DNA of 64,000 nt from an uncultured Candidatus Saccharibacteria bacterium (GTDB lineage: Bacteria; Patescibacteriota; Minisyncoccia; 2-02-FULL-40-12; GWA2-44-9): positions 6,777 through 70,776 of the forward strand of contig CAYTBY010000001.1 in the NCBI GenBank assembly GCA_964436165.1, given 5' to 3'. The position numbers and the translations under genes are program-made. The notes under the pieces were generated by a model that was not told the origin of the DNA, did not search any database, and saw only the letters and a program-made list of their open reading frames with translations. Shown here in pieces: positions 12,005 to 24,946 of this stretch. Position 1 is the stretch's first letter. The number at the start of each line of letters is the position of its first letter.

Positions 12005-12026
12005 TAAAAAAGGCCCTTTCAGGCCT
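12005..12026 (-). terminator. Terminator overlapping the stop of the transketolase C-subunit gene
   Basis: aaaaaa + AGGCC-ctttca-GGCCT. On the minus strand this reads as a hairpin followed by TTTTTT. Confidence 0.4.
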
Positions 12027-12951
12027 TTCGATATAAATCCATAATTTGTTGAGCTACTGCTTCCGCATTTAATTTATAACAGCCCAGCATGTATTGATGG
12101 CTACCGGTGCGGTGATTGTATTCGTCAGGAATGCCCAGGCATCTGAAAAGCGGTTTTTTCTTGTAGTCATATTCACAAATAATCCTAGCGATACTTTCTC
12201 CTAGTCCACCGATGACATTGTGTTCTTCTAAGACAAATATCATATTTCTTGTTCGAACCGATTTTTCAATAAGCTCCTTGTCCAGCGGCTTTATTGTATG
12301 AATATTTATTACTTCTGTGCTAATTCCATGCTGTTCAAGAATATCACTGGCAGAAACAGCTTCTCTGACCATTGTGCCTGTAGCAAAGATTGTTATATTT
12401 TCTCCATGTTTAACAACTAATCCTTTACCGATTTCGAGACTATATTCTTTTTCGGCATTCGGTTCTCCGCCCTTGCCGATTCGCAGGTAGGCAGGATGAG
12501 ATGCGGTCAGAATGTATTTCGTGATTAACCGTGCTTCAAGCGGGTTCGAGGGGGAGTATATATGCATGTTTGGCAATGCTTTCATTGCGGCAATATCTTC
12601 AATGGCATGATGAGTGCAACCGCAAGTCGAATAAGCATAACCGGCGGCTACTCCGATAACCACAACCCCGACATTTTGATAACAGACATCTACTTTAATC
12701 TGTTCAAGACATCGCAGTGTGGCAAATGGGGCAATGGAATAAACAAAAACTCTATTTCCAGAAAGGGCAAGACCGGCGGCAATACTAATCATATTCTGTT
12801 CAGCGATGCCGACGTTTACATACTGATATTTATCTTGCAAGTTTTTTCTGAAATCATCCAAGTGAGCATGACCCAGGTCGCCAGTTAAAAATACAATCTT
12901 GGGATCGGCAAGCGCGGCTTGGTAGATTGTCTTTATTACTTCAAATCTCAT
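12019..12951 (-). CDS. Transketolase, C-terminal (pyrimidine-binding) subunit of a split transketolase
   Basis: GIAEQNMISIAAGLALSG and a C-terminal transketolase fold. It is coupled by an ATGA overlap to the N-subunit gene. Confidence 0.8.
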   Translation of the reverse strand: MRFEVIKTIYQAALADPKIVFLTGDLGHAHLDDFRKNLQDKYQYVNVGIAEQNMISIAAGLALSGNRVFVYSIAPFATLRCLEQIKVDVCYQNVGVVVIGVAAGYAYSTCGCTHHAIEDIAAMKALPNMHIYSPSNPLEARLITKYILTASHPAYLRIGKGGEPNAEKEYSLEIGKGLVVKHGENITIFATGTMVREAVSASDILEQHGISTEVINIHTIKPLDKELIEKSVRTRNMIFVLEEHNVIGGLGESIARIICEYDYKKKPLFRCLGIPDEYNHRTGSHQYMLGCYKLNAEAVAQQIMDLYRKA

Positions 12952-13856
12952 TGGACACCCCCATTCAACTCTTTTTTAGCCCTCTCGTATTCTTCCGGGC
13001 TTGGGCATTTGCCATGCCAGATATAATCGTCTTCCATGAATGGGACACCCTTACCCTTTATTGTCTGGGCAATTATCGCCAGAGGATTTCTCTCTCTATC
13101 CAAAGCCTCTTTTATCTGGGGGAAAGAGTGGCCGTCTATTTTTTTTACTTGCCAGCCAAAACTCTCGAACTTTTTATCTAGCGGTTCTATGCTTAGAATC
13201 TTATCTGTCTGTCCTAGCGTCTCAAGATTATTATTATCAATAATCAAGACAAGATTGCTAAGTTTATGGAATCCGGCGAACATTAACGCTTCCCAGTTTG
13301 AACCTTCCTGAAGCTCGCCATCGCCCGCAAGAACAAATACTCTTGATGACTTTCCGGCTTTCTTGGCGGCTAAAGCCATGCCAATACCAACCGATAAGCC
13401 ATGGCCAAGGGAGCCATTGGTTGTTTCAACTCCGGGCAAAGCACCACGGGTATTGTGGTCACCGATCGGAGTGCCGTCGCTGCCATATTCCCTCAGTTTC
13501 TCCAATGGAAAATAACCCCTCATTGCCAAAATCGCATACAATGCCACACAAGCGTGGCCTTTGCTTAAAATAAATTTATCCCTGTCTTCCCAATTAGGAT
13601 TTGAAGGATTGATTTTCATGAGGTCTCCGAAATATAGCGCAGTTAATATGTCGACTATAGAAAGAGCGCAGCCAAGATGGGACGACTTAGCTTCAAATAT
13701 CATGTCCAGTATCAGATGTCGGGCCGTTCTTGCCTGTTTGGTCAGGTAGGTATTATTTGTCATTTTACCCCTTGTTTTTTTAACGAACATGTTTAGAAGA
13801 CTATACAACCATATTTTTATCCAGTCAATGAGCGGAGTTGACCCCGCACTTATCAA
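12948..13856 (-). CDS. Transketolase, N-terminal (TPP-binding) subunit
   Basis: HLGCALSIVDILTALYF and SKGHACVALYAIL. GDGELQEGSNWEA is a ThDP-binding GDG...N motif. Confidence 0.8.
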   Translation of the reverse strand: MISAGSTPLIDWIKIWLYSLLNMFVKKTRGKMTNNTYLTKQARTARHLILDMIFEAKSSHLGCALSIVDILTALYFGDLMKINPSNPNWEDRDKFILSKGHACVALYAILAMRGYFPLEKLREYGSDGTPIGDHNTRGALPGVETTNGSLGHGLSVGIGMALAAKKAGKSSRVFVLAGDGELQEGSNWEALMFAGFHKLSNLVLIIDNNNLETLGQTDKILSIEPLDKKFESFGWQVKKIDGHSFPQIKEALDRERNPLAIIAQTIKGKGVPFMEDDYIWHGKCPSPEEYERAKKELNGGVQ

Positions 13857-14032
13857 GCTTTGGCGGTTTGATATTTCTTGATGATGATGGTTTATAAATT
13901 ATTATGATTCTATTAGTAATTATTTGTTTAGCTTATGACCGCGAGGAAATATAAGCTCGATAAGTGACGGGGTTGATTCTTGGCTTTAATTTGATACCAT
14001 AACCCAAGTCCTATTAAGAAAGGAGTTGGTAG

Positions 14033-14731
14033 GTGGAGAAAATTTCATACAAAACAGTTAGTTATAAAAACATAAAAGTAAATTATTTGCCTGAACTTGA
14101 GGGCGGAGGCAGGGGATTTGGGCAAGAGTATATTCGTGTTATTAGGGAAAAAGTTGGAAAAGTTGACCATGTTTTTGAATTTTGCGCCGGGCCGGGATTT
14201 ATAGGTTTTTCTTTACTGGCGCAGGGGCTTTGTAATAGATTGACATTAGCGGATATTAACCCGGAAGCGGTAGGGGCCTGTCAAAAAACCATAGAGGATA
14301 ACGACCTTGAAGACAGAGTCTCTGTTTACTTGTCTGATTGTCTAGACTCAATTCCTGTATCGGAAAAATGGGATTTAGTGGTAAGTAATCCCCCTCATTT
14401 TTGGACCGGATCAGAGGAAGTTCATAAACAGGATATTCGTACGTATGATATTGATTTTAGAGTTCATAGAAAATTTTACCAGGATATTAAGAAATTTCTT
14501 AAACCCGATGGCTCGGTTATAATTCAAGAAAATGGAAATGTTAACCGGCCAGGCTTTACAAGGCTTGAAGATTTTACTTCTATGATCGGGGAAGGAGGTC
14601 TGGAAATTGTGGAAGTTTTTTACGCCAGAGTTATGTCTGTTGAAGAGTGTCTTGGCGGAGGAGGAAGGATGGGGATGGATACTCAACAATCCCAGTTCTA
14701 TTTTATTTGGAGCAAAATAAAAACCGCCTAA
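14033..14731 (+). CDS. Class I SAM-dependent methyltransferase (small-domain/NPPY-like, motif VSNPPHF)
   Basis: FEFCAGPGFIG is SAM motif I. DLVVSNPPHF is an NPPY-like motif IV. It has a GTG start preceded by AGGAG at 14021-14025. Confidence 0.6.
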   Translation: MEKISYKTVSYKNIKVNYLPELEGGGRGFGQEYIRVIREKVGKVDHVFEFCAGPGFIGFSLLAQGLCNRLTLADINPEAVGACQKTIEDNDLEDRVSVYLSDCLDSIPVSEKWDLVVSNPPHFWTGSEEVHKQDIRTYDIDFRVHRKFYQDIKKFLKPDGSVIIQENGNVNRPGFTRLEDFTSMIGEGGLEIVEVFYARVMSVEECLGGGGRMGMDTQQSQFYFIWSKIKTA

Positions 14732-14744
14732 ACATGGCGGTTTT
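14719..14744. terminator. Bidirectional rho-independent terminator between convergent genes
   Basis: AAAACCGCC-taaacat-GGCGGTTTT. Confidence 0.55.
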
Positions 14745-15693
14745 AACTTAAAACAGTTTTTCGTGATATTTCAGAAATGCCCCAAGATTTGTGCGGATCC
14801 GCATTTTCTAGCGTGATCGGGTCGTTAATTGACGACTTAAACGTGATTAATTCTTCTCTGCCGATGTGGCAGAACCTATCATAACTTAACCGAGGATGGG
14901 TGGGATGATACAGTTCGCCGCCCCCGATATTCGCAAAAGAAAGATGGTCAATTGATACGCGCGGTCCGGCGTTCTCCTTAAGGTTTGATTTATGTATTAC
15001 AGAAATGTCGGAAAGATATGTAAAACCAGGTTCAGAGGATTCAAAAACAGGAATCGGGTCGTAGTAGCTAAAATATTCAGCCCCATCGAGAAACTTCAAA
15101 ATCTTTAGCCACCTATCGGAAAAGTTATCCGGTGGTGCATAGTAAGCGCAATTATTATCTTTAGTATCGCCGAAAATAGGCGTAATCGTATTCATACTAT
15201 GAGGCGACTCACCTAGCCAGGCATCAGAATGGGGATTTTCTGTTGAATAAGTTTTTGCCGAATTCTCACTGTTTGCCCATTTGCTTTTCGTCCACTCATC
15301 CTTGTGCCGGATAGTAGTTAGGGCGTAAAAACTGGCTATTAAACCGGTGAAGTTAAAACTCCTCATTATATCCCCGTAAGCTCTGTGAATCATATTATAT
15401 TCTAGAGTCAATTCGCGTTTAGGCAAAAGACAGCCATTATTGTTCTTGTTTTTTAACTCTGCTGATCTTTTGCTGAATTCGGCCATAATATCAGATTCAG
15501 CGGTAAGTACTTTTCTGCTTGGCAAGCATCGAGACATATAAAGCGCCACCGCACATCTTAAGGAATCAAATAGGTCGGGCTGTATTTTTAGTTTAAGAAT
15601 AAGCGGCGAAGGTCTTGCGCAGTCCGTTCTCGAAGCTAATTCGTCAAATCTGGCAATGCGTTTTTTGAGGTCTTCGGTCATTTTTCCTCCCAT
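14743..15693 (-). CDS. Hypothetical protein (316 aa)
   Basis: ORF with no recognisable motif. It overlaps the next gene by 16 nt and lies inside the sugar locus. Confidence 0.3.
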   Translation of the reverse strand: MGGKMTEDLKKRIARFDELASRTDCARPSPLILKLKIQPDLFDSLRCAVALYMSRCLPSRKVLTAESDIMAEFSKRSAELKNKNNNGCLLPKRELTLEYNMIHRAYGDIMRSFNFTGLIASFYALTTIRHKDEWTKSKWANSENSAKTYSTENPHSDAWLGESPHSMNTITPIFGDTKDNNCAYYAPPDNFSDRWLKILKFLDGAEYFSYYDPIPVFESSEPGFTYLSDISVIHKSNLKENAGPRVSIDHLSFANIGGGELYHPTHPRLSYDRFCHIGREELITFKSSINDPITLENADPHKSWGISEISRKTVLS

Positions 15694-16253
15694 GAGATTG
15701 CTTCACGAGTTCGGAGACTGTCGTCTGTTTCCTCCGGATCATGTCTAAAAATATATAACTGACCATCGCGGGTATCAAAGTAAACGGCTGGAACATATCC
15801 CCTAAAATCCCGAGTGGCATCACAGCGAGTAATATTTACAACATCCAGGTATTGACCGTCTGTCATCCAGGTAAACCACCTGCCCAACAAGAGGCGTTCA
15901 ATTAGCGTACTCCCATTGATGCCATCGGATTGGATATGGTTAGCTGATTTGTTTTTATATTTTTCCTCCGGCTCAACCCCATCACGAAACCAGGTTGTAT
16001 AGGTGCCTTTGTCAGCCGACCTAACCGATTTAGTAATTAAGTCTATATTATCATTCGTCCATCGCCAGACTGGGCATATGTCAGAGTAGCTGCAGATGAT
16101 TTGTTCAATCGTCAATGATTGGGGCATAACTACTCCCCAGCGAAAATCTGGGTGAGTTTTTGGAATTTTGATTGTGTCTTGAGCCGGCAAGCCTATCTTA
16201 AAAACTTCCCATAAAAATTTAGTCTGATTATCAAGGAATATTTCGATGTCCAA
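15678..16253 (-). CDS. Hypothetical protein (191 aa)
   Basis: ORF only. Confidence 0.3.
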   Translation of the reverse strand: MDIEIFLDNQTKFLWEVFKIGLPAQDTIKIPKTHPDFRWGVVMPQSLTIEQIICSYSDICPVWRWTNDNIDLITKSVRSADKGTYTTWFRDGVEPEEKYKNKSANHIQSDGINGSTLIERLLLGRWFTWMTDGQYLDVVNITRCDATRDFRGYVPAVYFDTRDGQLYIFRHDPEETDDSLRTREAISWEEK

Positions 16254-16306
16254 GACCCCCTCACTTTGTTAATGTTCTATCCTCAATAGTATGAGCTTTA
16301 TTTTAA

Positions 16307-16470
16307 AAGTCAAATTAGGACTTACGCGCTTGGGCTTTAAGAGCCCCAAAGCCAGCAAGCCCTAAAGGGTTTGGCCAATTTCTTCGTTAAAATCTCCGCT
16401 TAATCCTCGCCATACTTCTAGTATGGCTCGGCTTAATGCTCGATTTTGCCTCGAACTTGGCCAAACGCGT
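16307..16470. mobile_element. MITE-like structured repeat, copy A. The TA-flanked terminal inverted repeat is GGACTTACGCG...CGCGTAAGTCC. The interior is divergent.
   Basis: Termini are identical to the copies at 20930..21142 and 49451..49632. Intergenic. Contains internal palindromes, for example CCATACT-tct-AGTATGG. Confidence 0.45.
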
Positions 16471-16482
16471 AAGTCCTACTTC

Positions 16483-16501
16483 TAATTAAAAATCCCCGTA
16501 T
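16483..16501 (-). terminator. Terminator downstream of radical SAM gene 2
   Basis: AATCCCC-gtata-GGGGATT, with a T-run on the minus strand. Confidence 0.45.
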
Positions 16502-16507: not shown

Positions 16508-18580
16508 TTAAAAATGTCCGGCGATTTGAACAACGGCCTTACTGCCGTAAAGATAGGCACTTCTTTTACTGCCATACCAGACAACAAATCGGCACCAATC
16601 TTCCCAAGAATTCCATTGATCGGTATTGTAATCGATTGTAATCACCGATCCCCGTTTTTCCAACTGGATTGGTTCAGATCTAACCGCTGCTTTATAAAAT
16701 TCCCAAATATTATATGTTAGCGGCACTTCACGGTTACCGGTACGGAAAGGAAGTTTGAGCATATGTTCATTAAGTTCCACGGCTTCTCTTATCGCATCCC
16801 GATATTCACTCTTACCGTATCTGTCTAATAAAGATTCCAAGGCGCGATATGCTTCTTGGTAGAATGCAGAAAGATTCCCGTTAGTCGCGAGGTCTATTAG
16901 CATATATTCATCGGAGGGCCACCACATGTCAAGCCATTGGCTTGAATGGCAGAACTCTTCACCGCCCAGCTGAATTGACTGCGCTTTCTCAATAAAGAAC
17001 TGGTGAATTTTGTTAAGAATAGGGAAGTCAGCAGGTTGGCCAAACTGTCCTTCGGAAAAAAGCTCAATGAGTTTACTGTAACTTGCGCCGGTAAGCTCAT
17101 GGGTTAGGACCATCGGAATTTGAAATACTTTGTCAAAATGTAAAAATGCTGCGGTCCAGCTGAATGCGCGGACACGGACCCAATCTTCGCGCGGCATGGA
17201 TTTAGTGGTAATAACCATTTCTTGGTATTCAGGAACATCGTTTTCAATCTCTTTCCGGTTACCATGAATGTTAATTGTGCGTGCTTCAACCGTCTCCATG
17301 CCGAACTTTTCCCGATAGCTGGGATCAGCCATTTCAGCATTGGGTAAAATGGTTAAAATATAGAATAAAATTCTATCATGTAATCCGTTTCTGATGAGTT
17401 GATCTACGCCGTTGGTAAATGAGTCGTATGTTTCTCCCGGTAATCCGAGGACGATATCGGTAAAAGATGACACGCCATCGAGTTTCATTCTCTGCTGAAT
17501 TTCCTGATATGAGTCAAGACTGATGTTGTCCCGCTTGATATCTCTAAGAGTTCCAGGATCCATTGATTGCATTGAGAGCGAGGCTCCGGCAGCAAGTCCG
17601 GCTTCAGCAAAAATTTTCTGTACTTCATAAGAACGATCGGTTGCATTTTTCGTGTTTGAAACGGTAATTGAAGTCGGATAGCCGGTTCGTTTTCGAGTTT
17701 CAGCGCAGTATCTGGCTATATCAATATCTCGGGGAAGAATTCCTAAGTTTGCGTCAGCTAAGAAAATAAATTCAACTTTGTGATCTGCGAACCAATCCAT
17801 TTCTCTATATACTCGTTCCATCTCCCATTTATAAACCTTGGATGCTATCGCGGAACCCCAATCGCAAAATGTGCATGAAAATGGACAACCGCGATTTGTT
17901 TCCCAAACAGTAATCCATTTGATGTCGGGATTAGCCTTGATTATAGGTTCAAAAGTGCCCTCAAGGTATGGTGAAGGTAGTTCGTCAAGCTCTTTAAGAC
18001 GGGCGATTCTTTCGGTCTGAACAATGTATCTATCCTTATCTAAATAACTGATTGACGGAATCTTTCCCCAGTCCCCATATATATTTTCCAGGAGCAGTGA
18101 AAAAGGTCTTTCGCCCTCACCATGGCAAGCGATATCAATATAAGAGTTATCTCGTAAGTAGGCCTCTGTTCTTGCTAATGCGGGATCGCTTGAGTTTGGT
18201 TGATTTTTTTTCAAACTGCTAATCGTAATCGGAAGCTGTTTATTTTGTATGTGTGATTTATATTTATCCGGCACATGGGGCCCGCCTACCACAATAACAA
18301 TGTTCGGCTTTCTTGCCTTTAGCTCTTTGGCTATTGCAAGAGATAACTGATTATTCCAGACATAAAGACTGAAGCATGCGATATTGGAAGATATTAATTT
18401 TTTGACAGCTGAATCTACCGATTCTCGCGTAAAAATCGGAGAAAGGAATTGAAACCTGTCAATATTGGGAAGATTTTTACGCGCGTATGCTTCCAGAAGC
18501 CCAACGGAATACGGCAAATAGCTTGCTCCGGAAAAACCGGCGTTTATTTGGCATAAACCGACGGTAATTTTTTGATTCAT
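16508..18580 (-). CDS. B12-binding-domain radical SAM enzyme (690 aa, paralog 2)
   Basis: CPFSCTFC motif. Colinear with 7809..9956 from the N-terminus to the C-terminal ...WYGSKRSAYLYG. Confidence 0.75.
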   Translation of the reverse strand: MNQKITVGLCQINAGFSGASYLPYSVGLLEAYARKNLPNIDRFQFLSPIFTRESVDSAVKKLISSNIACFSLYVWNNQLSLAIAKELKARKPNIVIVVGGPHVPDKYKSHIQNKQLPITISSLKKNQPNSSDPALARTEAYLRDNSYIDIACHGEGERPFSLLLENIYGDWGKIPSISYLDKDRYIVQTERIARLKELDELPSPYLEGTFEPIIKANPDIKWITVWETNRGCPFSCTFCDWGSAIASKVYKWEMERVYREMDWFADHKVEFIFLADANLGILPRDIDIARYCAETRKRTGYPTSITVSNTKNATDRSYEVQKIFAEAGLAAGASLSMQSMDPGTLRDIKRDNISLDSYQEIQQRMKLDGVSSFTDIVLGLPGETYDSFTNGVDQLIRNGLHDRILFYILTILPNAEMADPSYREKFGMETVEARTINIHGNRKEIENDVPEYQEMVITTKSMPREDWVRVRAFSWTAAFLHFDKVFQIPMVLTHELTGASYSKLIELFSEGQFGQPADFPILNKIHQFFIEKAQSIQLGGEEFCHSSQWLDMWWPSDEYMLIDLATNGNLSAFYQEAYRALESLLDRYGKSEYRDAIREAVELNEHMLKLPFRTGNREVPLTYNIWEFYKAAVRSEPIQLEKRGSVITIDYNTDQWNSWEDWCRFVVWYGSKRSAYLYGSKAVVQIAGHF

Positions 18581-18663: not shown

Positions 18664-18686
18664 AAAAAAGAGCCTCCTCGGCTCTT
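18664..18686 (-). terminator. Terminator overlapping the stop of the SDR gene
   Basis: aaaaaa + AGAGCC-tcct-CGGCTCT. Confidence 0.45.
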
Positions 18687-19635
18687 AAGTGTTTGTATAC
18701 TTATTGTTTCTGATAACCTGATATCCCTTGATTAGTTCTACAATCCCATCCCGTAACGATATTTGGGGCTTAAATCCGGTACTTTCTATCTTTTCGTTGC
18801 TTACAATGTAATTACGTTTATCCGGGTCTTCTCCGATGGACGCTTCGTGAAAATAAAAAGAGGGAATTTGTTTTTGTATTTCCTGGCATAGTTCAAGCTT
18901 GCTAAGATTGGCATTGCTTAAGCCGACATTGTATACTTGATTTTTCATTTGATCGAAGTTCTTGATGCAATGCAGGAACGCCCTGGCTACATCTCGGACA
19001 TGGATATAGTTTCTTTTGAAATGAGCCTCAAAGAGAACTAAGTAGCGGTCATTTAATGCACGATATACAAAATCATTGACAAGAAGGTCAAGCCGCATTC
19101 GAGGGCTTATTCCGAATACCGTGGCTAGGCGCAGTACGATTGAATTACCCCTCTCTAATACTAATTTTTCTGCTTCAACTTTTTGGCGGCCGTAAAGAGA
19201 GATCGGGTTAAGAGGAGCCTCCTCTGTGCAGTAAATACTGTCTTGACCTATGCCATAACCACTGTTGGTATTCGGGAAGATTACTTTTGGCGTCGAATCT
19301 TCAACCCATTTTTGGCATACTTCCACTACGCCGCCGATATTGACCGTGGTAGAAGTTACGGGATCTTTATCGCAAGCGGATGCTCCGACAATAGCGGCAA
19401 GAGGAAAAACATACTCGGGTTTATAATCTTTAAAAATTTTATCTATTAATTTCTCATCCCTTGTGTCGCCTCGGATTAGATTGAACCTATCAGGATAAGA
19501 GAAACATTCCAGAAGAGTGGTCTGACCATACATGAAATTATCTAATACGATTACCTCGTGGCCTTCATTAAGAAGTGTCGGTACTAAAACAGAACCGATA
19601 TATCCGGCACCGCCGGTGACTAGGATTTTAGACAT
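18685..19635 (-). CDS. NAD-dependent epimerase/dehydratase (extended SDR)
   Basis: [12 protein letters not shown] motif and a YxxxK motif. Confidence 0.7.
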   Translation of the reverse strand: MSKILVTGGAGYIGSVLVPTLLNEGHEVIVLDNFMYGQTTLLECFSYPDRFNLIRGDTRDEKLIDKIFKDYKPEYVFPLAAIVGASACDKDPVTSTTVNIGGVVEVCQKWVEDSTPKVIFPNTNSGYGIGQDSIYCTEEAPLNPISLYGRQKVEAEKLVLERGNSIVLRLATVFGISPRMRLDLLVNDFVYRALNDRYLVLFEAHFKRNYIHVRDVARAFLHCIKNFDQMKNQVYNVGLSNANLSKLELCQEIQKQIPSFYFHEASIGEDPDKRNYIVSNEKIESTGFKPQISLRDGIVELIKGYQVIRNNKYTNT

Positions 19636-20819
19636 CAGCTACCTCTACAGATTCTCAAAACTACATTCGAAATTAATTCGATATCTTTAGGTTCAAGGGA
19701 CGGATTGTTGGGAAGGAATAGACCGCAATCATAAATTCTTGTAGCCATAGGGGCTTGGAATTTGCCGTAATTATCATACCAGAAGGGATGAAGACCAAGG
19801 TTGCCGGCGGAGTAAAGTCTTGTTTCTATCCCATTTTCTTTCAGACTGGTGGCTATTTTGTCTCTTTCGGTTGAATCTTTAGCTAAGATGGCAAAATGGA
19901 TACTGGAGACCACTGAATCTTTATCGTAATTTTGGGTGTAAACATAATCGCCTAGTAAGCCTCGATACAGTTCATGATTTTCTCTTCTTCGCTTGATTGT
20001 CCATTCCAATTTATCCAATTGTCCCAATCCAATGAATGCTTGTATGTCGGTAGGCCGGACATTAAATCCGGGATAAAAGAAAGCAAAGGGACGATGGGCG
20101 GTGTCAATATTGTATTTACCAAAGATTCTGTTGTATGTTTCAGGATCCAGATGTTGGCCCCAGCCATGACTTCTGATCATTACCAGAATATTGTAAAACT
20201 CTTGGTCGTCAGTAAAAACAAGTCCTCCTTCAACGGTTGGCGATTGGTGGCCATAGTAAGTTGAAAAACTGGACATATCTCCGAATGTCCCGACTTTTCG
20301 GTTTTTGTAGCTTGATCCCACAGAAGCACAGGCATCCTCCAGTAAAAGGAATCTGTATTTTTCTTTCAAAGCTAGAATCTCATCCATTTTATGAGGCACA
20401 CCGAGAACTTGAACAAGCATTACTGTGGCGGGATGGTGTCTTTTGAGAAGTTCTTCCAAATGGCTTAAATCTAATCCGAATGTGTCTGGGTCGGCTTCGC
20501 ACATGATAGGTTCAAAACCAAATTGAATCGCTGGAGAAATTGTTGTTACCCAACCCACGCTAGGAACAATAACTTTCTTATTCATTAACTTACTGGAACA
20601 AAGAAGCGTATAATACATCAGTTGGTTGGCTGAAGATCCAGAGTTAACAAAGACGGCATGGTTGCTTCCCAACCATTCAGCCCATTTTTTCTCATATTGC
20701 TTGGTCATTTCATCCATTGTTAATCTCGGATTAGTTCTTAGCCAAGCAATTAGCTTTTCAATATCTTCCCGGTCAATGGTGTCGCCGGCTAAAGGATGTT
20801 TAGGAGTCGCGCTGTCCAT
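19635..20819 (-). CDS. DegT-fold PMP-dependent sugar 3-dehydratase (ColD/E1-like). The canonical PLP-lysine is replaced by histidine.
   Basis: DMSSFSTYYGHQSPTVEGG aligns residue-for-residue with DMTIFSFHPVKSITTGEGG of the PseC-like protein, and the H falls at the K position. This is the known hallmark of ColD/E1 dehydratases. Confidence 0.55.
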   Translation of the reverse strand: MDSATPKHPLAGDTIDREDIEKLIAWLRTNPRLTMDEMTKQYEKKWAEWLGSNHAVFVNSGSSANQLMYYTLLCSSKLMNKKVIVPSVGWVTTISPAIQFGFEPIMCEADPDTFGLDLSHLEELLKRHHPATVMLVQVLGVPHKMDEILALKEKYRFLLLEDACASVGSSYKNRKVGTFGDMSSFSTYYGHQSPTVEGGLVFTDDQEFYNILVMIRSHGWGQHLDPETYNRIFGKYNIDTAHRPFAFFYPGFNVRPTDIQAFIGLGQLDKLEWTIKRRRENHELYRGLLGDYVYTQNYDKDSVVSSIHFAILAKDSTERDKIATSLKENGIETRLYSAGNLGLHPFWYDNYGKFQAPMATRIYDCGLFLPNNPSLEPKDIELISNVVLRICRGS

Positions 20820-20890
20820 AAAACCACCTCTTGATTTTCAAAGTTCTTTCCCTGTGTTATATGAAACTTTTACGAATTCGTCAAATAAAA

Positions 20891-20918
20891 TCCCTCACCT
20901 TTCCGAAAGGTGAGGGGT
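20891..20918 (-). terminator. Hairpin CCCTCACCT-ttccgaa-AGGTGAGGG, probable terminator for the carbamoyltransferase transcript
   Basis: 9-bp GC-rich stem. On the minus strand it is followed by an A/T-rich tract. Confidence 0.35.
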
Positions 20919-20929
20919 AAAAACTATCA

Positions 20930-21142
20930 TAGGACTTACGCGTTTGCCCAAGATTGAGGCAAAATGCTTAAGTTTTTATGAGACGTACTAGGAGTACGAC
21001 GAGGAAAAACTTAAGTATTTTAACGACCGCGTGCCGCCTTAGCTTTAGCGGTGGCGCAAAAGATTGGGCAAACCTTTATGGCTTGAGCCACGTAAAGCCC
21101 TACTGATTTCGGGCTTCGTGGCTCAAGCGCGTAAGTCCTATA
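20930..21142. mobile_element. MITE-like structured repeat, copy B (about 213 bp)
   Basis: TA-GGACTTACGCG...CGCGTAAGTCC-TA termini. Interior nearly identical to copy C, plus about 30 extra bp. Confidence 0.5.
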
Positions 21143-21147
21143 TCAGA

Positions 21148-22842
21148 TTAGGCAGTTTTAGCGACTAGGTATCTGGCATTTAATACCAGGTAATCTATAT
21201 CCGTACCCAAGAAACAGTCGATTGCTTCTTGGGGTGTATTTATGATTGGTTGGCCCATGACATTGAACGAGGTATTTAATATAACTCCAATTCCGGTTAG
21301 ATGCTTGAATGCTTTCAGCAGTTTATAAAGGTTGGGATTTTGTTCTTCCTTTAGGGTCTGAACTCTTGCGGTCCCATCAATGTGGGTGATGGCCGGAACG
21401 ATACTTCTCTTTTCTTTCCTAACCCCGTAAGTTAAAAGCATATATGGCGATTGGTGGGTATTATCAAAATATTCTCCGCAATCTTCCTCCAAAACTATTG
21501 GCGCAAAAGGCCTGAAGCCTTCCCGATGCTTAACTCTTGAATTAAGAATATCTTTTATTTCTGCTGGAAATGGCGCAGTAAGAATCGAACGATTTCCGAG
21601 GGCTCGAGGGCCGAACTCAAATCTTCCGTTAAACCAGGCAATGATTTTTTGATCAGCCAGTAATTTAGCTACCAAAAGGAATAAGTCCTTAGGGTCGGTA
21701 TACTTTACTGAATTATTGATCAGAACACTTTTGATTTGTTCGTCCGTGTATTCGTTGCCCAAATAGGCGTTTTCCATCGTGTTGCGTTTGGCTTCGGGAT
21801 TCGCTTGGTAATGGTAGTTGAGCGCGGCTCCGATGCCAAGGCCGGCATCATTAGCGGCAGGTTGAATAAAGATATTTTTAAAAGGCGTTTCGGTTAGTAT
21901 TTTGCCATTGGCGACGCAGTTTAATGCTACCCCGCCAGCAAGGCAGAGATTTGATTCTCCAGTTTCAAGGTGTAAATTATTAGCGGCATGCACTAAAGCT
22001 TTTTCAGTTATATATTGCGCTCCGGCGGCGATATCTTTATGTTGCTGGGTAATTTTTTCTTGTGGCTCTCTAGCCGGACCACAAATCTCGGCAAATTTTG
22101 ACGACATGGTTGAACCTTGTATGAACGGATAATCAAAATAGCTCAAGTCCATTTCAAATTTGCCGTTAGGTTTTAGTTGGATAATATCATCAAAAACTTC
22201 TCTGTATTTTTCAATGTTTCCATAGGGCGCAAGACCCATGATTTTTCCTTCATCGCAATGTTTCTTGAAACCTAGCCAACCAGTAATGCAAGTATAGAGA
22301 ACTCCCAAAGAGCTTGGCCATTCAACATTATTTTCTTCGTAAGTGTATATATGGTTATCTTGTCCTCGTCCAATCATCAAACTTTCAATTTCGCCAACAC
22401 CGTCAACGGACAGTAGCGCACTGTGAGAAAATCCCGAGAGATAATAGGCGCTTGCCATGTGGGCAATGTGATGTCGACAAAAAGCAACTTCTTTTTTGAA
22501 GTTTAATTGTTCGCGTATTTCTTTTTCAATGTCCATGACCCTGTTGATCCATTTAAATTCAGATTCCATCCGAGGCCTTACTTGAGGATAATGGTTGAGC
22601 CAATGTCTAATAAATCTAAGACGTACGTGGGCGACCGGATCGGTCGGCACGCAGAAAACATCAACGTCTTCCATACTGATTTTTGCAAAGTCCAGGCAGG
22701 CCCTAATTGCATTATGAGGAAATTTTGGAGTGTGTTTTTCTCTGTTGAATCTCTCTTCTTCGGCGGCGTAAAGTAGCCGGCCATCCTTAACAATGGCCGC
22801 CGCGGCATCGTGGGAGAATGTCATCGCCCCAATAATTATCAT
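21148..22842 (-). CDS. Carbamoyltransferase (NodU/CmcH family)
   Basis: MIIIGAMTFSHDAAAAIVKDGRLLYAAEEERFNREKH N-terminus. C-terminal YrdC-like carbamoyl-adenylate domain. Confidence 0.8.
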   Translation of the reverse strand: MIIIGAMTFSHDAAAAIVKDGRLLYAAEEERFNREKHTPKFPHNAIRACLDFAKISMEDVDVFCVPTDPVAHVRLRFIRHWLNHYPQVRPRMESEFKWINRVMDIEKEIREQLNFKKEVAFCRHHIAHMASAYYLSGFSHSALLSVDGVGEIESLMIGRGQDNHIYTYEENNVEWPSSLGVLYTCITGWLGFKKHCDEGKIMGLAPYGNIEKYREVFDDIIQLKPNGKFEMDLSYFDYPFIQGSTMSSKFAEICGPAREPQEKITQQHKDIAAGAQYITEKALVHAANNLHLETGESNLCLAGGVALNCVANGKILTETPFKNIFIQPAANDAGLGIGAALNYHYQANPEAKRNTMENAYLGNEYTDEQIKSVLINNSVKYTDPKDLFLLVAKLLADQKIIAWFNGRFEFGPRALGNRSILTAPFPAEIKDILNSRVKHREGFRPFAPIVLEEDCGEYFDNTHQSPYMLLTYGVRKEKRSIVPAITHIDGTARVQTLKEEQNPNLYKLLKAFKHLTGIGVILNTSFNVMGQPIINTPQEAIDCFLGTDIDYLVLNARYLVAKTA

Positions 22843-22911
22843 CTCGCCATCCTTTTTAAGAAGCTGGGCATTATATACATGATTTTTAATAGTTAGTCAA
22901 TAAGCGTAATA

Positions 22912-22938
22912 AAAAAGACCGTCTTAGAACGGTCCTTT
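22912..22938 (-). terminator. Terminator overlapping the stop of the E1-beta gene
   Basis: GACCGT-cttagaa-CGGTC with TTTTTT on the minus strand. Confidence 0.45.
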
Positions 22939-23970
22939 AAATTTATTTTCCCAAGTATGGAATTTTTCTTGGTTTAAATCTGTTTTGGTTAATCCTAACT
23001 TTTTTTCTACTGCGCGTACAATATCAACAGCGTTGGGATAGAATAAATTTTCCAGCGGTCTGGTGGTTGGACATGGAGTGGGAGCAAAACCGATTCTGGT
23101 TACAGGAGATTTGAGTTTTCCAAAACACTTTTCAGAAATGCGGGCCGCTACTTCAGCGCTGAATCCGCAGTTAAGCCAGTCATAATCAGCCACAACGCAA
23201 TGACCAGTTTTGTTAACTGATTTAATCATCACCTCATCATCCAGGGGACTGACTGTCCGCGGATCAATTATCTCTAAGCCTATCCCTCTTTTGGCAAGAA
23301 CTTGAGCGGCATCGTGGGCCTCCACGTTCATCCAGGAGGTAGCGACGACAGTAATATCAGAACCTTGTCGTATAACGCGGCTCTGGCCAATTGGCACAGT
23401 GTATGGCTCTTCAGGTACATTGCCCTCTATCCAGTAAAGCCAGCGATGTTCCAGACAAATTACCGGGTTGTTATCTCTTATCGCCGAGATCATTAACCCC
23501 TTCATATCGTATGGCGTGGTAGGCATAATTACTTTTAGTCCTGGAATATGGGCGAAAATTGATTGTAAACTTTTGCTGTGTTGAAATCCTTGTCCCCAGC
23601 CTCGGCCAATGACGGCTCTTATTACGATTGGAACGGATAAATTTCCGTTACTGCCATATCTTAGGGAGGAAGCAATATTTATCAATTGATTCATGGCCAG
23701 CAATAAAAACTCTACTCTTATGTGGACATTGATTGGCCTTAACCCGCTAAGGGCGGCTCCGATCCCAAATCCCAGCAGAGCTTCTTCAGAAAGAGGAGTA
23801 CTAAAACATCTTTTTGGTCCGAATTTTTCTAATCCGTTTGTTGAGCCAAAAATTGCCTTGTGGTCGGCTACATCTAAACCATAGACGAACACTCTTTCAT
23901 CCGCGGCCATTTCCTGGCTTATCGCCTCATTAATCGCTTGCTGATAAGTGATTATTCGCTGGTTACTCAT
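22924..23970 (-). CDS. TPP-dependent 2-oxoacid/acetoin dehydrogenase E1 component, beta subunit
   Basis: Transketolase-like pyrimidine-binding and C-terminal domains. ATGA overlap with the alpha-subunit gene. Confidence 0.75.
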   Translation of the reverse strand: MSNQRIITYQQAINEAISQEMAADERVFVYGLDVADHKAIFGSTNGLEKFGPKRCFSTPLSEEALLGFGIGAALSGLRPINVHIRVEFLLLAMNQLINIASSLRYGSNGNLSVPIVIRAVIGRGWGQGFQHSKSLQSIFAHIPGLKVIMPTTPYDMKGLMISAIRDNNPVICLEHRWLYWIEGNVPEEPYTVPIGQSRVIRQGSDITVVATSWMNVEAHDAAQVLAKRGIGLEIIDPRTVSPLDDEVMIKSVNKTGHCVVADYDWLNCGFSAEVAARISEKCFGKLKSPVTRIGFAPTPCPTTRPLENLFYPNAVDIVRAVEKKLGLTKTDLNQEKFHTWENKFKGPF

Positions 23971-24946
23971 CGTAAACTCCGTGATAGAGATCTTTCGGTT
24001 CTGGAAATGGCGCGTTTTGGGCTAGAATGATAGCTTGATCTATCTGCCGGATTACGGTTTCTTCAATTTTTATTACCTCGTTTTCTAGTCCAGCTTTTAT
24101 CAATTTCGCTCTTTGCATGTCAACCGGATCTTTTTCTCGCCATTTTAAAAATTCTTCTTTAGGCCGATAGCCAGCCTCAAAGTCTTCATTTGTCCCCACA
24201 TGTTCAAGATAGCGATAATATTTTAAAGACATAAGAATTGGACCAGATTCAAGGTGTTCCAGGGCAGTTTTAGTTAAATTAAATATTTCCTCTACTTCGG
24301 TGCCAGGGTATTTAACACAATGACATCCAAACTGTTTTACAATAACAGCAAGGTTGGCATAACTGTGTCGCGATGCGGTGTGAGCATGAATAGCAAGGCC
24401 GTTGTCTTCATACACAAACAAAACAGGCAGTTTCCAAAGGCAAGCCAGATTGATGCTTTCCCAAAAAACACCTTCATCTACTGCGCCGTCGCCGAAAAAG
24501 ACAACGGCAATTTTATTATTATCAAGATAATGGTTAGCAAAGGCATTACCGAGTGCCGGAGCGATATTAGTTCCAACTACGGCCGAGCTGAACATTACCC
24601 CCTTCTCCGGATTGGCTAAATGCATTGATCCCGCTTTTCCGCCCGCTGGCCCGCTGGCCTTACCATAAAGTTCAGCAAAAAAGCCATTTATATCTTCGGT
24701 CGCGGCAAGATAAACAGCATGACTGCGGTAAGTGCTGAAAATTTGATGCCTTCCTTCAAGGGCCGTGCAAACTCCGGCGGCGATAGCTTCTTCGCCCATC
24801 GACATGTGCATTGGAGTTTTCATTTCATCGTGGCTGTATTCTTGGATTATTTTTTTTTCCGCCTGGCGTATTAGATACATCTTACGGTAGAGATCTAGCG
24901 AGAGATTAGCCGGTTTTATGTTCAAAGTAGCTCCTGTTATTGTCAA
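23963..24946 (-). CDS. TPP-dependent 2-oxoacid/acetoin dehydrogenase E1 component, alpha subunit
   Basis: GDGAVDEG...YEDNGLAIH ThDP-binding motif. YRSHA motif. Confidence 0.75.
   Translation of the reverse strand: MTITGATLNIKPANLSLDLYRKMYLIRQAEKKIIQEYSHDEMKTPMHMSMGEEAIAAGVCTALEGRHQIFSTYRSHAVYLAATEDINGFFAELYGKASGPAGGKAGSMHLANPEKGVMFSSAVVGTNIAPALGNAFANHYLDNNKIAVVFFGDGAVDEGVFWESINLACLWKLPVLFVYEDNGLAIHAHTASRHSYANLAVIVKQFGCHCVKYPGTEVEEIFNLTKTALEHLESGPILMSLKYYRYLEHVGTNEDFEAGYRPKEEFLKWREKDPVDMQRAKLIKAGLENEVIKIEETVIRQIDQAIILAQNAPFPEPKDLYHGVYDE

What the first reader, a model, noticed from the sequence alone, without database searches (positions are those of the whole stretch)
12019..24946. Two thiamine-diphosphate two-carbon-transfer systems in one sugar cluster: a split transketolase and an E1 alpha/beta pair
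A split transketolase lies at 12019..13856 and a pyruvate/acetoin-dehydrogenase-like E1 alpha/beta pair at 22924..24946. Both are embedded among nucleotide-sugar modifying enzymes rather than central metabolism. In known glycan pathways such enzymes attach C2 side chains, for example branched or chain-extended sugars.
The neighbouring aldo/keto reductase, SDR, carbamoyltransferase and radical SAM enzymes are consistent with a heavily decorated, possibly branched, higher-carbon sugar.
Basis: inference. Interest (0 to 1): 0.5.

Follow-up and report, generated by a model that had tools for sequence, protein, structure and literature searches.

The report
Two thiamine enzymes for sugar branching
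An uncultivated bacterium's cell-surface sugar gene cluster holds two thiamine-dependent carbon-carbon-bond enzymes that look repurposed from central metabolism, most likely to add two-carbon branches to an activated seven-carbon sugar, a chemistry so far known mainly from antibiotic pathways.

Summary
A split transketolase lies at 12019-13763 (longest ORF runs to 13856). A pyruvate-dehydrogenase-type E1 alpha/beta pair lies at 22924-24925. Both sit in a roughly 60-kb glycan locus, probably from a Yanofskybacteria-like bacterium of the candidate phyla radiation (CPR).

New here: the "aminotransferase" next to the E1 pair is a ColD-type sugar 3-dehydratase, with His replacing the catalytic Lys. 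The adjacent SDR is 55% identical to a Campylobacter jejuni SDR that I recall as Cj1427, the GDP-heptose C4-dehydrogenase. The conserved module therefore reads: oxidise C4, remove the 3-OH, then add a two-carbon unit to the ketone. This is yersiniose-like logic, but with an E1-type enzyme acting on a heptose.

No E2 or E3 gene was found in the window or in 80 related genomic loci. None of the 8 E1 and 3 further transketolase neighbourhoods inspected showed E2, E3, acetoin or pentose-phosphate genes.

The transketolase keeps its cofactor and donor residues. It has lost canonical sugar-phosphate-binding residues (S385A, H461A, D469C). None of its 120 closest homologues has H461 or D469. A split transketolase lies within 10 kb of the E1 pair in 22 of 52 related loci.

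Verdict: a new variant of known ThDP-dependent sugar branching. No biochemistry is available.

The parts
23963..24925 (-). E1 alpha subunit (ThDP diphosphate-binding domain), 320 aa. The longest ORF extends to 24946.
   Evidence: E1_dh 8.5e-48. PDH_E1_alph_y scores 251 bits, below its 393.85 cut-off. The GDG..N ThDP motif is present, and the catalytic His aligns with human E1 alpha His263. Start at TTG 24925 behind an AGGAG site; identical to P0001.
22924..23970 (-). E1 beta subunit (pyrimidine-binding and TK C-terminal domains), 348 aa. Overlaps E1 alpha by 8 nt.
   Evidence: Pfam. NF006667 scores 302.7 bits, below its 321 cut-off. Matches 1w85_B at 2e-68, with Glu59 and His128 conserved.
21148..22842 (-). 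NodU/CmcH-type carbamoyltransferase, inserted between the E1 pair and the 3-dehydratase.
   Evidence: Carbam_trans_N 6e-65 and Carbam_trans_C 5e-71. It occupies the same position in L005.
19635..20819 (-). ColD-type PLP/PMP-dependent sugar 3-dehydratase. It belongs to the DegT family but has His in place of the catalytic Lys.
   Evidence: Motif SFSTYYGHQSPTVEGG, against SFHPVKSITTGEGG in the true PseC at 2463-3623. The His is present in all five syntenic loci. Best structure is ColD 2gms (1.5e-59) with His188 aligned; next is the CDP-sugar 3-dehydrase 3bcx (1e-39). Best NCBIfam match is RfbH.
18685..19635 (-). Cj1427-like NDP-heptose C4-dehydrogenase (SDR). Its start overlaps the dehydratase stop by 1 nt.
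   Evidence: Matches PDB 6vo6/6vo8 over its full length at 2.5e-112, at 55% identity. 6vo6 is a 313-aa Campylobacter jejuni protein. That it is Cj1427 rests on my memory. Cj1427 function is described in PMC10680097.
16508..18580 (-). B12-binding radical SAM enzyme, KedN5-like C-methyltransferase family.
   Evidence: Radical_SAM and B12-binding. NF033712 at 2.6e-73, below cut-off. Conserved next to the module in L005; B12/radical SAM genes also occur in L003, L006 and L014.
25034..25621 (-). NUDIX hydrolase immediately upstream of E1 alpha.
   Evidence: Pfam. tblastn at E <= 1e-5 finds homologues in 23 related loci, several directly upstream of E1 alpha.
12948..13763 (-). Split transketolase N-half (ThDP diphosphate-binding domain). 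The longest ORF extends to 13856.
   Evidence: Transketolase_N 8e-49. Matches 6yak at 7.7e-72. H26, H66, H100, D155 and N185 (E. coli numbering) are conserved. Likely start is ATG 13763.
12019..12951 (-). Split transketolase C-half (pyrimidine-binding and C-terminal domains). Its acceptor pocket is remodelled.
   Evidence: Pfam. Matches 6yaj at 1.2e-53. E411, H473 and R358 are kept, while S385 is A, H461 is A, D469 is C and R520 is K. None of the 120 best homologues has H461 or D469.
11056..11859 (-). Classical SDR next to the transketolase, a candidate branch ketoreductase.
   Evidence: adh_short 5.8e-36. An SDR directly follows the orthologous TK pair in L006 and L007.
10109..11059 (-). Aldo/keto reductase. 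Overlaps the SDR by 4 nt.
   Evidence: Aldo_ket_red 5e-56. An AKR lies next to the TK in L010 and L013. Pau7, an AKR, reduces the acetyl branch in paulomycin (PMC4753412).
7809..9956 (-). Second B12-type radical SAM enzyme, KedN5-like.
   Evidence: Radical_SAM. NF033712 at 1.6e-66, below cut-off. Adjacent to an AKR in L001, L006 and L007.
5767..7709 (-). A 4,6-dehydratase-like SDR (6723-7709) and a GDP-fucose-synthase-like SDR (5767-6765). Together they could generate and process a keto-sugar.
   Evidence: gmd 138 bits, dTDP-glucose dehydratase 130 bits and Fcl 147 bits, all below cut-off.
34742..35323 (-). GmhA, sedoheptulose-7-phosphate isomerase; entry to the heptose pathway.
   Evidence: TIGR00441 scores 208.4 bits against a 209.45 cut-off.
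29628..30611 (-). HddA-like GHMP heptose-7-phosphate kinase.
   Evidence: NF049969 at 3.8e-44, below cut-off. Found in 29 of 52 related loci.
28420..28929 (+). RfaE-domain-II-like heptose-1-phosphate nucleotidyltransferase. A paralogue lies at 26451-27071.
   Evidence: TIGR02199 at 4.4e-27 and 1.6e-23. Conserved in L005, L025, L073 and L088.
28951..29538 (-). RmlC-like 3,5-epimerase for 4-keto sugars.
   Evidence: dTDP_sugar_isom 1.7e-39. Found in 34 of 52 related loci.
36299..39568 (-). GDP-mannose/heptose 4,6-dehydratase-like gene carrying two inteins. The spliced extein is 345 aa.
   Evidence: GDP_Man_Dehyd 2e-124, LAGLIDADG_3 and Intein_splicing. Junctions read from the sequence: GAQ|...HN|SHVKVSF and FNHE|...HN|SPRRGETF.

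Best explanation
Both ThDP systems are tailoring enzymes of a cell-surface glycan pathway. They are not central-metabolism enzymes.

Proposed route for the E1 module. All steps are inferred from homology and gene order.
1. Sedoheptulose-7-P is converted by GmhA, an HddA-like kinase, a phosphatase and an RfaE-domain-II-like nucleotidyltransferase into an NDP-heptose. The nucleotide would be GDP by analogy with Campylobacter.
2. The Cj1427-like SDR (18685-19635) oxidises C4.
3. The ColD-type dehydratase (19635-20819) removes the 3-OH, giving an NDP-3-deoxy-4-keto-heptose.
4. The E1 alpha/beta pair decarboxylates pyruvate to hydroxyethyl-ThDP. It adds this to the C4 ketone instead of to lipoamide, giving a 4-C-acetyl tertiary alcohol.
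5. Reduction, O-carbamoylation (21148-22842) and radical-SAM C-methylation (16508-18580) follow.

Proposed role of the transketolase. The split TK (12019-13763) forms dihydroxyethyl-ThDP from a ketol donor, possibly hydroxypyruvate. It transfers a hydroxyacetyl unit to a second, non-phosphorylated keto or aldehydo sugar nucleotide. The adjacent SDR and aldo/keto reductase then reduce the new ketone.

What is shown: the gene identities, the conserved synteny, the catalytic and substituted residues, and the absence of E2/E3. What is inferred: substrates, regiochemistry and products.
For: (1) Context.
- E1 alpha-E1 beta is followed by the His-type DegT and the Cj1427-like SDR in five syntenic loci. 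Two of these are Candidatus Yanofskybacteria MAGs; the other three are unnamed.
- All 8 E1 contexts inspected, and all 3 further TK contexts, are glycan clusters.

(2) No complex partners.
- Every one of the 52 genomic loci of at least 15 kb has E1 beta.
- None of 80 loci has an E2 or E3 homologue, and neither does the window.

(3) Acceptor-making enzymes.
- ColD is the best structural match of the dehydratase, and its His188 is conserved.
- Every DegT homologue found near E1 pairs is His-type: 14 of the 52 long loci carry one, and none carries only a Lys-type.
- The adjacent SDR is 55% identical over its full length to the C. jejuni protein of PDB 6vo6.
- In vitro, Cj1427 plus a C. jejuni C3-dehydratase makes GDP-D-glycero-3-deoxy-4-keto-D-threo-heptose (PMC10680097). 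The proposed acceptor is therefore chemically accessible.

(4) E1 competence.
- The ThDP motif, alpha His, beta Glu59 and beta His128 are all present.
- Scores fall below the NCBIfam PDH equivalog cut-offs.

(5) Transketolase residues.
- Cofactor and donor residues H26, H66, H100, D155, N185, E411 and H473 are kept.
- S385 is A, H461 is A, D469 is C and R520 is K. The same changes occur in orthologues at 78-85% identity. The bona fide split TK of Carboxydothermus keeps all the canonical residues (PMC7661550).
- None of the 120 nearest homologues has H461 or D469.
- In L011 the TK pair lies between a dehydratase-like SDR and a His-type DegT.

(6) Co-occurrence. A split TK pair lies within 10 kb of the E1 pair in 22 of 52 loci from many phyla.

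(7) Precedent. The alphaKADH2 pairs, and the proposed split TKs, branch keto sugars (PMC12247030). An AKR, Pau7, reduces such a branch (PMC4753412).
Against: - There is no biochemical or glycan-structure data for this organism or for any relative.
- I could not obtain sequences of characterised branching enzymes (AviB1/B2, Pau11/12, KbDH, the miharamycin TK). Grouping with them is therefore untested.
- TK-type sugar branching has never been demonstrated in vitro, even in the reference pathways.
- The TKs that co-occur with E1 pairs in other phyla belong to a different subfamily. They are 30-39% identical to the window's TK-C and mostly keep D469.
- Heptose-pathway genes co-occur with the TK, which also fits a role in supplying sedoheptulose-7-P.
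- The ColD-like and Cj1427-like partners accompany only a minority of the family: 14 of 52 loci and 10 of 80 loci respectively.
- The activating nucleotide is unclear. The window has RfaE-type nucleotidyltransferases and no HddC-type enzyme.
- That PDB 6vo6 is Cj1427 rests on my memory plus its C. jejuni origin.
Confidence: 0.6

Rival explanations
1. The split transketolase is an ordinary sugar-phosphate transketolase. It sits in the locus to supply sedoheptulose-7-phosphate to GmhA and the heptose pathway.
For: GmhA, the HddA-like kinase and other heptose-pathway genes co-occur with the TK in the window and in L010, L012 and L013-type loci. R358 is retained and R520 is a conservative Lys. Many CPR genomes are metabolically reduced (my background knowledge).
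Against: Three canonical substrate-channel residues are replaced (S385A, H461A, D469C), and the replacements are conserved in orthologues. None of the 120 closest homologues has H461 or D469, whereas the characterised Carboxydothermus split TK keeps them. L006 and L007 each carry two divergent TK pairs, each with its own SDR. The L011 TK lies between a dehydratase-like SDR and a 3-dehydratase, with no SIS or GHMP-kinase gene in the 13-kb stretch retrieved. I found no other pentose-phosphate gene among the window ORFs scanned.
Confidence: 0.15
2. The E1 alpha/beta pair is the E1 component of a housekeeping pyruvate or acetoin dehydrogenase complex, and its place in the sugar locus is coincidental.
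For: Its best family and structure matches are PDH E1 subunits. The catalytic residues used for lipoyl chemistry, including beta His128, are present. Automatic annotations of homologues say PDH or acetoin E1.
Against: No E2 or E3 was found in the window or in 80 related loci. All 8 contexts inspected are glycan clusters. Scores fall below both the PDH E1 alpha and E1 beta equivalog cut-offs. Tight linkage to a sugar 3-dehydratase and a C4-dehydrogenase is conserved.
Confidence: 0.04
3. The ThDP enzymes act on something other than a sugar-ring ketone. One option is decarboxylation of an alpha-keto-acid sugar, such as a nonulosonic or ulosonic acid. Another is building a small acyloin or hydroxyacyl substituent that is later attached to an amino sugar. 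For the TK, a third option is extending a terminal aldehyde (chain elongation rather than branching).
For: PseB, PseC and a Pse-associated methylase are in the window, so alpha-keto-acid sugars may be made. Transketolases normally use aldehyde acceptors. The subfamily that co-occurs with E1 pairs elsewhere mostly keeps D469, the residue that reads the 2-OH of aldoses. A B12 radical SAM and a carbamoyltransferase suggest further unusual chemistry.
Against: The conserved partners of the E1 pair are enzymes that make a 4-keto sugar, not Pse genes. All known sugar-pathway E1 pairs add to ring ketones. I found no acyltransferase or ligase next to either system among the Pfam hits.
Confidence: 0.15

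Closest known systems
alphaKADH2-type sugar-branching E1 alpha/beta pairs (AviB1/AviB2 of avilamycin, Pau11/Pau12 of paulomycin, the aldgamycin enzymes, KbDH-alpha/beta of kibdelomycin)
   Same: A two-gene E1 alpha/beta enzyme without E2 or E3, encoded inside a deoxy/keto-sugar pathway. Tailoring enzymes lie alongside: a ketoreductase candidate, a C-methyltransferase candidate and a carbamoyltransferase. The predicted chemistry is transfer of an acetyl unit from pyruvate to a C3 or C4 ketone (PMC12247030, PMC4753412).
   Different: The known members are described from antibiotic (secondary-metabolite) pathways. Here the pair sits in a Wzx/Wzy/ABC-type surface-glycan locus of an uncultivated CPR bacterium. 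Relatives occur in many other phyla. The pair is coupled to heptose-pathway enzymes, a ColD-type dehydratase and a Cj1427-like dehydrogenase. The sequence relationship to the characterised members was not testable.
Yersiniose A pathway (CDP-glucose 4,6-dehydratase, the E1/E3 3-deoxygenation system, YerE, YerF) and the related erwiniose and caryophyllose pathways
   Same: The same logic in a cell-surface glycan: make a 3-deoxy-4-keto nucleotide sugar, add a carbon branch at C4 with a ThDP enzyme, then reduce it.
   Different: YerE is a single-chain, acetolactate-synthase-like flavoenzyme. The window has no such gene; it uses an E1 alpha/beta pair and a split TK. The 3-dehydratase is ColD-like, with no sign of E1/E3 iron-sulfur partners. 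The likely substrate is a heptose rather than a CDP-hexose. YerE-like genes do occur beside E1 and TK in relatives L001 and L013.
Split-gene transketolases proposed for hydroxyacetyl branching in miharamycin and amipurimycin biosynthesis
   Same: The TK is split into N and C genes and sits in a sugar pathway next to oxidoreductases. It is proposed to transfer a C2 ketol unit to a keto sugar.
   Different: The 13 reported candidates all come from Streptomyces and none has been shown to work in vitro. The window's enzyme belongs to a large family from environmental bacteria. In that family the canonical acceptor residues are lost.
Campylobacter jejuni capsular heptose modification enzymes (Cj1427 C4-dehydrogenase, HS:5 C3-dehydratase, C3/C5 epimerases, C4 reductases)
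   Same: A GmhA/HddA-type route to an activated heptose. The window has a 55%-identical homologue of the C. jejuni SDR of PDB 6vo6 (Cj1427 by my recollection), a ColD-type 3-dehydratase, an RmlC-like epimerase, and GMD- and Fcl-like SDRs.
   Different: C. jejuni reduces the 4-keto intermediates, and no ThDP enzyme is reported there. In that work the combination of Cj1427 and the C3-dehydratase was an artificial in vitro mix. Here the two genes are naturally adjacent and linked to a C-C bond-forming enzyme.

Membership tests
alphaKADH2 sugar-branching E1 alpha/beta enzymes | Separate, adjacent alpha (PP domain) and beta (Pyr + TKC domains) genes | tested here: met
   Pfam; the genes overlap by 8 nt.
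alphaKADH2 sugar-branching E1 alpha/beta enzymes | Intact ThDP-binding and catalytic residues | tested here: met
   The GDG..N motif and alpha His are present. Beta Glu59 and His128 are conserved.
alphaKADH2 sugar-branching E1 alpha/beta enzymes | No E2 or E3 partner; encoded within a keto-sugar pathway | tested here: met
   No AceF or Lpd homologue in the window or in 80 loci. A ColD-type dehydratase and a Cj1427-like SDR are adjacent.
alphaKADH2 sugar-branching E1 alpha/beta enzymes | Sequence clustering with characterised members (AviB1/B2, Pau11/12, KbDH) | not testable with these tools
   Their sequences could not be retrieved. Krug et al. 2024 is not held.
alphaKADH2 sugar-branching E1 alpha/beta enzymes | Pyruvate-dependent acetyl transfer to a keto sugar | not testable with these tools
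   Requires an enzyme assay.
Pyruvate/acetoin dehydrogenase complex E1 | Scores above the curated equivalog cut-offs | tested here: not met
   E1 alpha scores 251.4 against a 393.85 cut-off. E1 beta scores 302.7 against 321 and 284.2 against 454.
Pyruvate/acetoin dehydrogenase complex E1 | Operon or genomic association with E2 (lipoyl acyltransferase) and E3 | tested here: not met
   The whole genome was not available.
Canonical transketolase (EC 2.2.1.1) | ThDP and metal ligands plus donor-side histidines (H26, H66, H100, D155, N185, E411, H473) | tested here: met
   MAFFT alignment with E. coli TktA and the Carboxydothermus TK.
Canonical transketolase (EC 2.2.1.1) | Sugar-phosphate/aldose-binding residues R358, S385, H461, D469 and R520 | tested here: not met
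   R358 is kept. S385 is A, H461 is A, D469 is C and R520 is K.
Canonical transketolase (EC 2.2.1.1) | Pentose-phosphate or Calvin-cycle gene context | tested here: not met
   Glycan context in the window and in the four loci with TK homologues of 46-85% identity for which neighbourhoods were inspected.
Split-gene TK proposed for keto-sugar hydroxyacetylation (miharamycin/amipurimycin) | Split N and C genes in a sugar pathway next to an oxidoreductase | tested here: met
   ATGA overlap between the halves, with an SDR and an AKR downstream.
Split-gene TK proposed for keto-sugar hydroxyacetylation (miharamycin/amipurimycin) | Homology to, or the same activity as, the reference enzymes | not testable with these tools
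ColD/E1-type sugar 3-dehydratases | DegT fold with His replacing the Schiff-base Lys | tested here: met
   The His aligns with ColD His188; the H188N variant 3b8x reads SNH at the same position.
Cj1427-type NDP-heptose C4-dehydrogenase | Full-length orthology to Cj1427 | tested here: met
   55% identity, E 2.5e-112, to 6vo6. 6vo6 is a C. jejuni protein. Equating it with Cj1427 rests on my memory. The alpha-ketoglutarate ping-pong mechanism is not testable here.
YerE-like ThDP flavoenzymes | TPP_enzyme_N/M/C architecture | tested here: not met
   None among the window ORFs scanned. Present in relatives L001 (split) and L013.

The most novel reading that the evidence does not exclude
A widespread, undescribed pathway may exist in uncultivated bacteria, including the CPR, Omnitrophota, Dehalococcoidia, Planctomycetota and Desulfobacterota. 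It would build surface glycans from heptose-derived sugars of nine or more carbons that carry branches. One branch would be an acetyl or hydroxyethyl group added by an E1 alpha/beta enzyme to a naturally made NDP-3-deoxy-4-keto-heptose. A second, hydroxyacetyl or dihydroxyethyl branch would be added by a dedicated transketolase family whose acceptor pocket has been rebuilt for nucleotide sugars. This would be the first functional setting for TK-type sugar branching. It would also be the first E1-type branching outside antibiotic biosynthesis.
Probability: 0.35. Interest if true: 0.75.

Novelty: new variant of a known kind. Interest (0 to 1): 0.58.

Why it matters
ThDP-dependent branching of keto sugars creates chiral tertiary alcohols and unusual higher-carbon sugars. 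According to a 2025 review (PMC12247030):
- E1-type branching is described from antibiotic pathways.
- TK-type branching is only a hypothesis, resting on 13 Streptomyces candidates.

If this reading is right, three things follow.
- Both classes are common in the surface-glycan loci of many uncultivated lineages.
- The TK question becomes directly testable, because there is a large and diverse set of candidates with a recognisable residue signature.
- A natural route to 3-deoxy-4-keto-heptoses exists, which so far have been made only by mixing Campylobacter enzymes in vitro.

It would also say something about how CPR bacteria decorate their surfaces. These bacteria depend on contact with host cells.

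Tried and rejected
- Locating the window's own contig by exact protein look-up failed. P0001 is not on record in the look-up of encoding contigs. The cluster look-up showed only unnamed singletons from one 152,652-bp contig. The organism is therefore inferred from its nearest relatives.
- Several papers are not held: Krug et al. 2024 (the in silico survey of branching enzymes), Romo et al. 2019 (amipurimycin) and the Cj1427 structure paper.
- A text search for the PDB codes 6VO6 and 6VO8 found nothing relevant. The link from 6vo6 to Cj1427 therefore rests on its C. jejuni origin and my memory.
- A literature search for transketolase in O-antigen clusters found nothing.
- I checked E1 beta His128 as a possible discriminator of lipoyl chemistry. 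It is conserved, so it does not discriminate.
- I first read the gene at 19635-20819 as an aminotransferase that might aminate the branch, as in kibdelomycin. I rejected that once the Lys-to-His change and the ColD match were seen.
- Raw tblastn counts for the TK C-half were inflated by cross-hits to E1 beta. I corrected them by excluding hits that overlap E1 beta.
- No tRNA genes are in the window, and base composition shows no island boundary around the finding.

Full report
**1. The observation**

ORF listing and Pfam/NCBIfam scans confirm both gene pairs at the stated coordinates.

- The transketolase (TK) is split. The N-half is 12948-13856 (Transketolase_N, 8e-49). The C-half is 12019-12951 (Transket_pyr plus Transketolase_C). 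The two genes overlap by ATGA.
- Their best solved-structure matches are the two chains of the Carboxydothermus hydrogenoformans split TK, at 7.7e-72 and 1.2e-53.
- The N-half most likely starts at the ATG at 13763, behind an AAGGGG site. That gives 271 aa, as in its orthologues.
- E1 alpha (E1_dh, 8.5e-48) and E1 beta overlap by 8 nt. The database copy of E1 alpha starts at the TTG at 24925.

**2. Setting**

The window is one large glycan locus.

- It encodes GmhA, an HddA-like GHMP kinase, RfaE-domain-II-like nucleotidyltransferases, an RmlC-like epimerase and several 4,6-dehydratase- and Fcl-like SDRs.
- It also encodes PseB and PseC (both above their curated cut-offs), an ABC exporter, Wzx, a Wzy_C-TPR protein, a GT2 glycosyltransferase and an initiating sugar transferase.
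- I found no pentose-phosphate genes among the ORFs scanned, and tblastn found no E2 or E3.
- The proteins are unnamed singletons from one 152,652-bp public contig.
- The nearest named relatives are Candidatus Yanofskybacteria MAGs. E1 alpha reaches 71% identity and TK-C 81%. The source is therefore probably a member of the candidate phyla radiation (CPR, also called Patescibacteria).

**3.

I inspected eight neighbourhoods of E1 alpha homologues at 54-83% identity. Two are Yanofskybacteria MAGs, one is a Chloroflexota MAG, and the rest are unnamed MAG or metagenome contigs. All are glycan clusters. Three neighbourhoods of more distant TK-C homologues (46-52%) are glycan clusters too. They carry GmhA, GHMP kinase, HAD phosphatase and NTP-transferase genes, along with glycosyltransferases and flippases.

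A scan of species-representative genomes returned 80 loci from many phyla. Local tblastn on these gave the following.

| Feature near E1 alpha | Count |
|---|---|
| E1 beta | 52 of 52 loci of at least 15 kb |
| E. coli AceF (E2) or Lpd (E3) homologue | 0 of 80 loci |
| GMD-like SDR | 44 of 52 |
| RmlC-like epimerase | 34 of 52 |
| HddA-like kinase | 29 of 52 |
| Separate split TK pair within 10 kb | 22 of 52 |

A genome has few TK genes per megabase, so my rough estimate is that the last figure is at least a ten-fold enrichment. The predicted refutation (pentose-phosphate or acetoin context) is not observed.

**4. What the E1 pair works with**

The gene after the E1 pair (19635-20819) looks like a DegT aminotransferase, but it is not one.

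- At the Schiff-base lysine position it has His. The motif is SFSTYYGHQSPTVEGG, against SFHPVKSITTGEGG in the window's true PseC. All five syntenic orthologues share the His.
- Its best structure is ColD, the GDP-4-keto-6-deoxy-mannose 3-dehydratase (1.5e-59), with His188 aligned. The next best is the CDP-sugar 3-dehydrase.
- Every DegT homologue found near E1 pairs in the genome loci is His-type. Fourteen of the 52 long loci carry one, and none carries only a Lys-type.

The next gene (18685-19635) overlaps the dehydratase stop by one base.

- It matches PDB 6vo6/6vo8 over its full length at 2.5e-112 and 55% identity.
- That chain is a 313-aa Campylobacter jejuni SDR. [quoted passage not shown]
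- PMC10680097 describes the Cj1427 reaction. It also shows that Cj1427 plus the HS:5 C3-dehydratase makes GDP-D-glycero-3-deoxy-4-keto-D-threo-heptose in vitro.
- The SDRs in the same position in the five syntenic loci are 49-56% identical to the C. jejuni protein.

The conserved module therefore reads: C4 oxidation, C3 dehydration, then a ThDP enzyme. This is the logic of yersiniose synthesis, in which YerE adds a C2 unit to CDP-3,6-dideoxy-4-keto-glucose (PMC12247030). Here an E1 alpha/beta enzyme replaces YerE and the substrate is a heptose.

**5. Is the E1 pair competent, and is it a PDH E1?**

- The ThDP motif, the alpha catalytic His, beta Glu59 and beta His128 are all conserved.
- Both subunits score below the curated PDH equivalog cut-offs.
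- Together with the absence of E2 and E3, this fits the alphaKADH2 class, which adds an acetyl branch from pyruvate to C3 or C4 ketones of deoxysugars. Members include AviB1/B2, Pau11/12, the aldgamycin enzymes and KbDH; KbDH has been assayed in vitro.
- I could not obtain those sequences, so direct grouping with them is untested.

**6. The transketolase**

I aligned the window TK with E. coli TktA and the Carboxydothermus enzyme.

- It keeps H26, H66, H100, D155, N185, E411, H473 and R358. These cover the cofactor and metal ligands and the donor site for the ketol unit.
- It has S385A, H461A, D469C and R520K in the acceptor/phosphate channel. PMC7661550 names R358, S385, D469 and R520 as substrate-binding positions and reports that the bona fide split TK keeps them.
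- Orthologues at 78-85% identity share the same substitutions.
- None of the 120 closest homologues, down to 45% identity, has H461 or D469.
- A second subfamily occurs beside the first in L006 and L007, and beside E1 pairs in other phyla. It has H461G and a variable residue at position 385, but mostly keeps D469.
- An SDR or an aldo/keto reductase is always adjacent.
- In L011 the TK lies between a dehydratase-like SDR and a His-type DegT.

This pattern argues for ketol transfer to a non-phosphorylated sugar-nucleotide acceptor. Split TKs have been proposed to do this in miharamycin and amipurimycin biosynthesis, but it has never been shown. The main rival, supply of sedoheptulose-7-P to GmhA, is not excluded. 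It fits the residue pattern and the paralogue pairs poorly.

**7. Proposed mechanism (inference)**

1. An NDP-heptose is oxidised at C4 and dehydrated at C3.
2. Hydroxyethyl-ThDP, formed from pyruvate on the E1 pair, attacks C4 and gives a 4-C-acetyl tertiary alcohol.
3. Reduction, O-carbamoylation and radical-SAM C-methylation follow.
4. The TK adds a hydroxyacetyl unit to a second keto or aldehydo sugar, possibly made by the dehydratase-like SDR at 6723-7709.
5. The adjacent SDR or aldo/keto reductase reduces that branch. In paulomycin biosynthesis the AKR Pau7 does this job.

The activating nucleotide is uncertain. The window has RfaE-type nucleotidyltransferases and NUDIX genes, but no HddC-type enzyme.

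**8. Comparison and novelty**

Each element has a precedent: YerE logic in lipopolysaccharide, alphaKADH2 pairs and proposed split TKs in antibiotic pathways, and Campylobacter heptose enzymes. Four aspects are new.

- The setting is surface-glycan loci of CPR bacteria and many other uncultivated lineages.
- A Cj1427-like dehydrogenase and a ColD-like dehydratase are naturally coupled to an E1-type carboligase.
- A large TK family carries a rebuilt acceptor pocket.
- The two ThDP classes frequently occur together. In L013 all three classes occur together, next to an erwiniose-like aldolase/dehydrogenase pair (PMC9306805).

I rate this a new variant of a known kind, of moderate to good interest. 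Everything beyond gene identity and synteny still needs biochemistry.

Noticed in passing
window 36299-39568 (-): The GDP-mannose/heptose 4,6-dehydratase-like gene carries two inteins. The first spans aa 111-492, has a LAGLIDADG domain and is inserted at GAQ|SHVKVSF. The second spans aa 604-948 and is inserted at FNHE|SPRRGETF. Both end in HN followed by Ser. The spliced extein is 345 aa. A key pathway enzyme therefore depends on protein splicing.
   Followed up: partly
window 1828-4558 (-), and 4644-5729: PseB and PseC (both above their NCBIfam cut-offs) and a Pse-associated methylase begin a pseudaminic-acid-type pathway in the same locus. The ORF at 4644-5729, which has no Pfam hit, matches the TIGR04440 glycosyltransferase domain. 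I did not look for the later Pse genes.
   Followed up: partly
window 25034-28929: There are duplicated NUDIX hydrolases (25034-25621 and 27746-28354) and duplicated RfaE-domain-II-like nucleotidyltransferases (26451-27071 and 28420-28929), plus an AAA_28 P-loop protein (27071-27697). No HddC-type guanylyltransferase was seen. The nucleotide that activates the heptose is therefore unclear.
   Followed up: partly
window 43502-46964 (+): A run of small paralogous ORFs has no Pfam match. The ORFs at 43502 and 46380 share the LIKSTxFE, YFYLRxVHNM and PFGxWY motifs. The ORFs at 44632 and 45954 have hydrophobic C-terminal stretches. GC skew turns positive in this region. Function unknown.
   Followed up: no
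L013 1-18972 (JGI Ga0209514_10000004, 483-502 kb): One glycan cluster carries E1 alpha/beta, a full-length YerE/acetolactate-synthase-like ThDP enzyme, a split transketolase and an AKR. It also carries an acylating acetaldehyde dehydrogenase and a DmpG-type aldolase, which resemble the erwiniose donor-supply genes ErwI and ErwJ. All three ThDP sugar-branching classes sit side by side.
   Followed up: partly
L058 (contig binned as Nanoarchaeota, JAUYPG010000004.1): An E1 alpha homologue (53%) sits with a ColD-like (59%) and a Cj1427-like (54%) gene on a contig assigned to an archaeal MAG. This could reflect gene transfer between episymbiont lineages or a binning error.
   Followed up: no
window 30666-34441 (-), with L003, L005, L007, L016: An MsbA/PglK-like ABC exporter is paired with a conserved protein of about 655 aa that has no family match. 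The pair recurs next to the heptose and E1 genes in CPR loci. The unknown protein could be a membrane transferase or polymerase for the glycan.
   Followed up: partly
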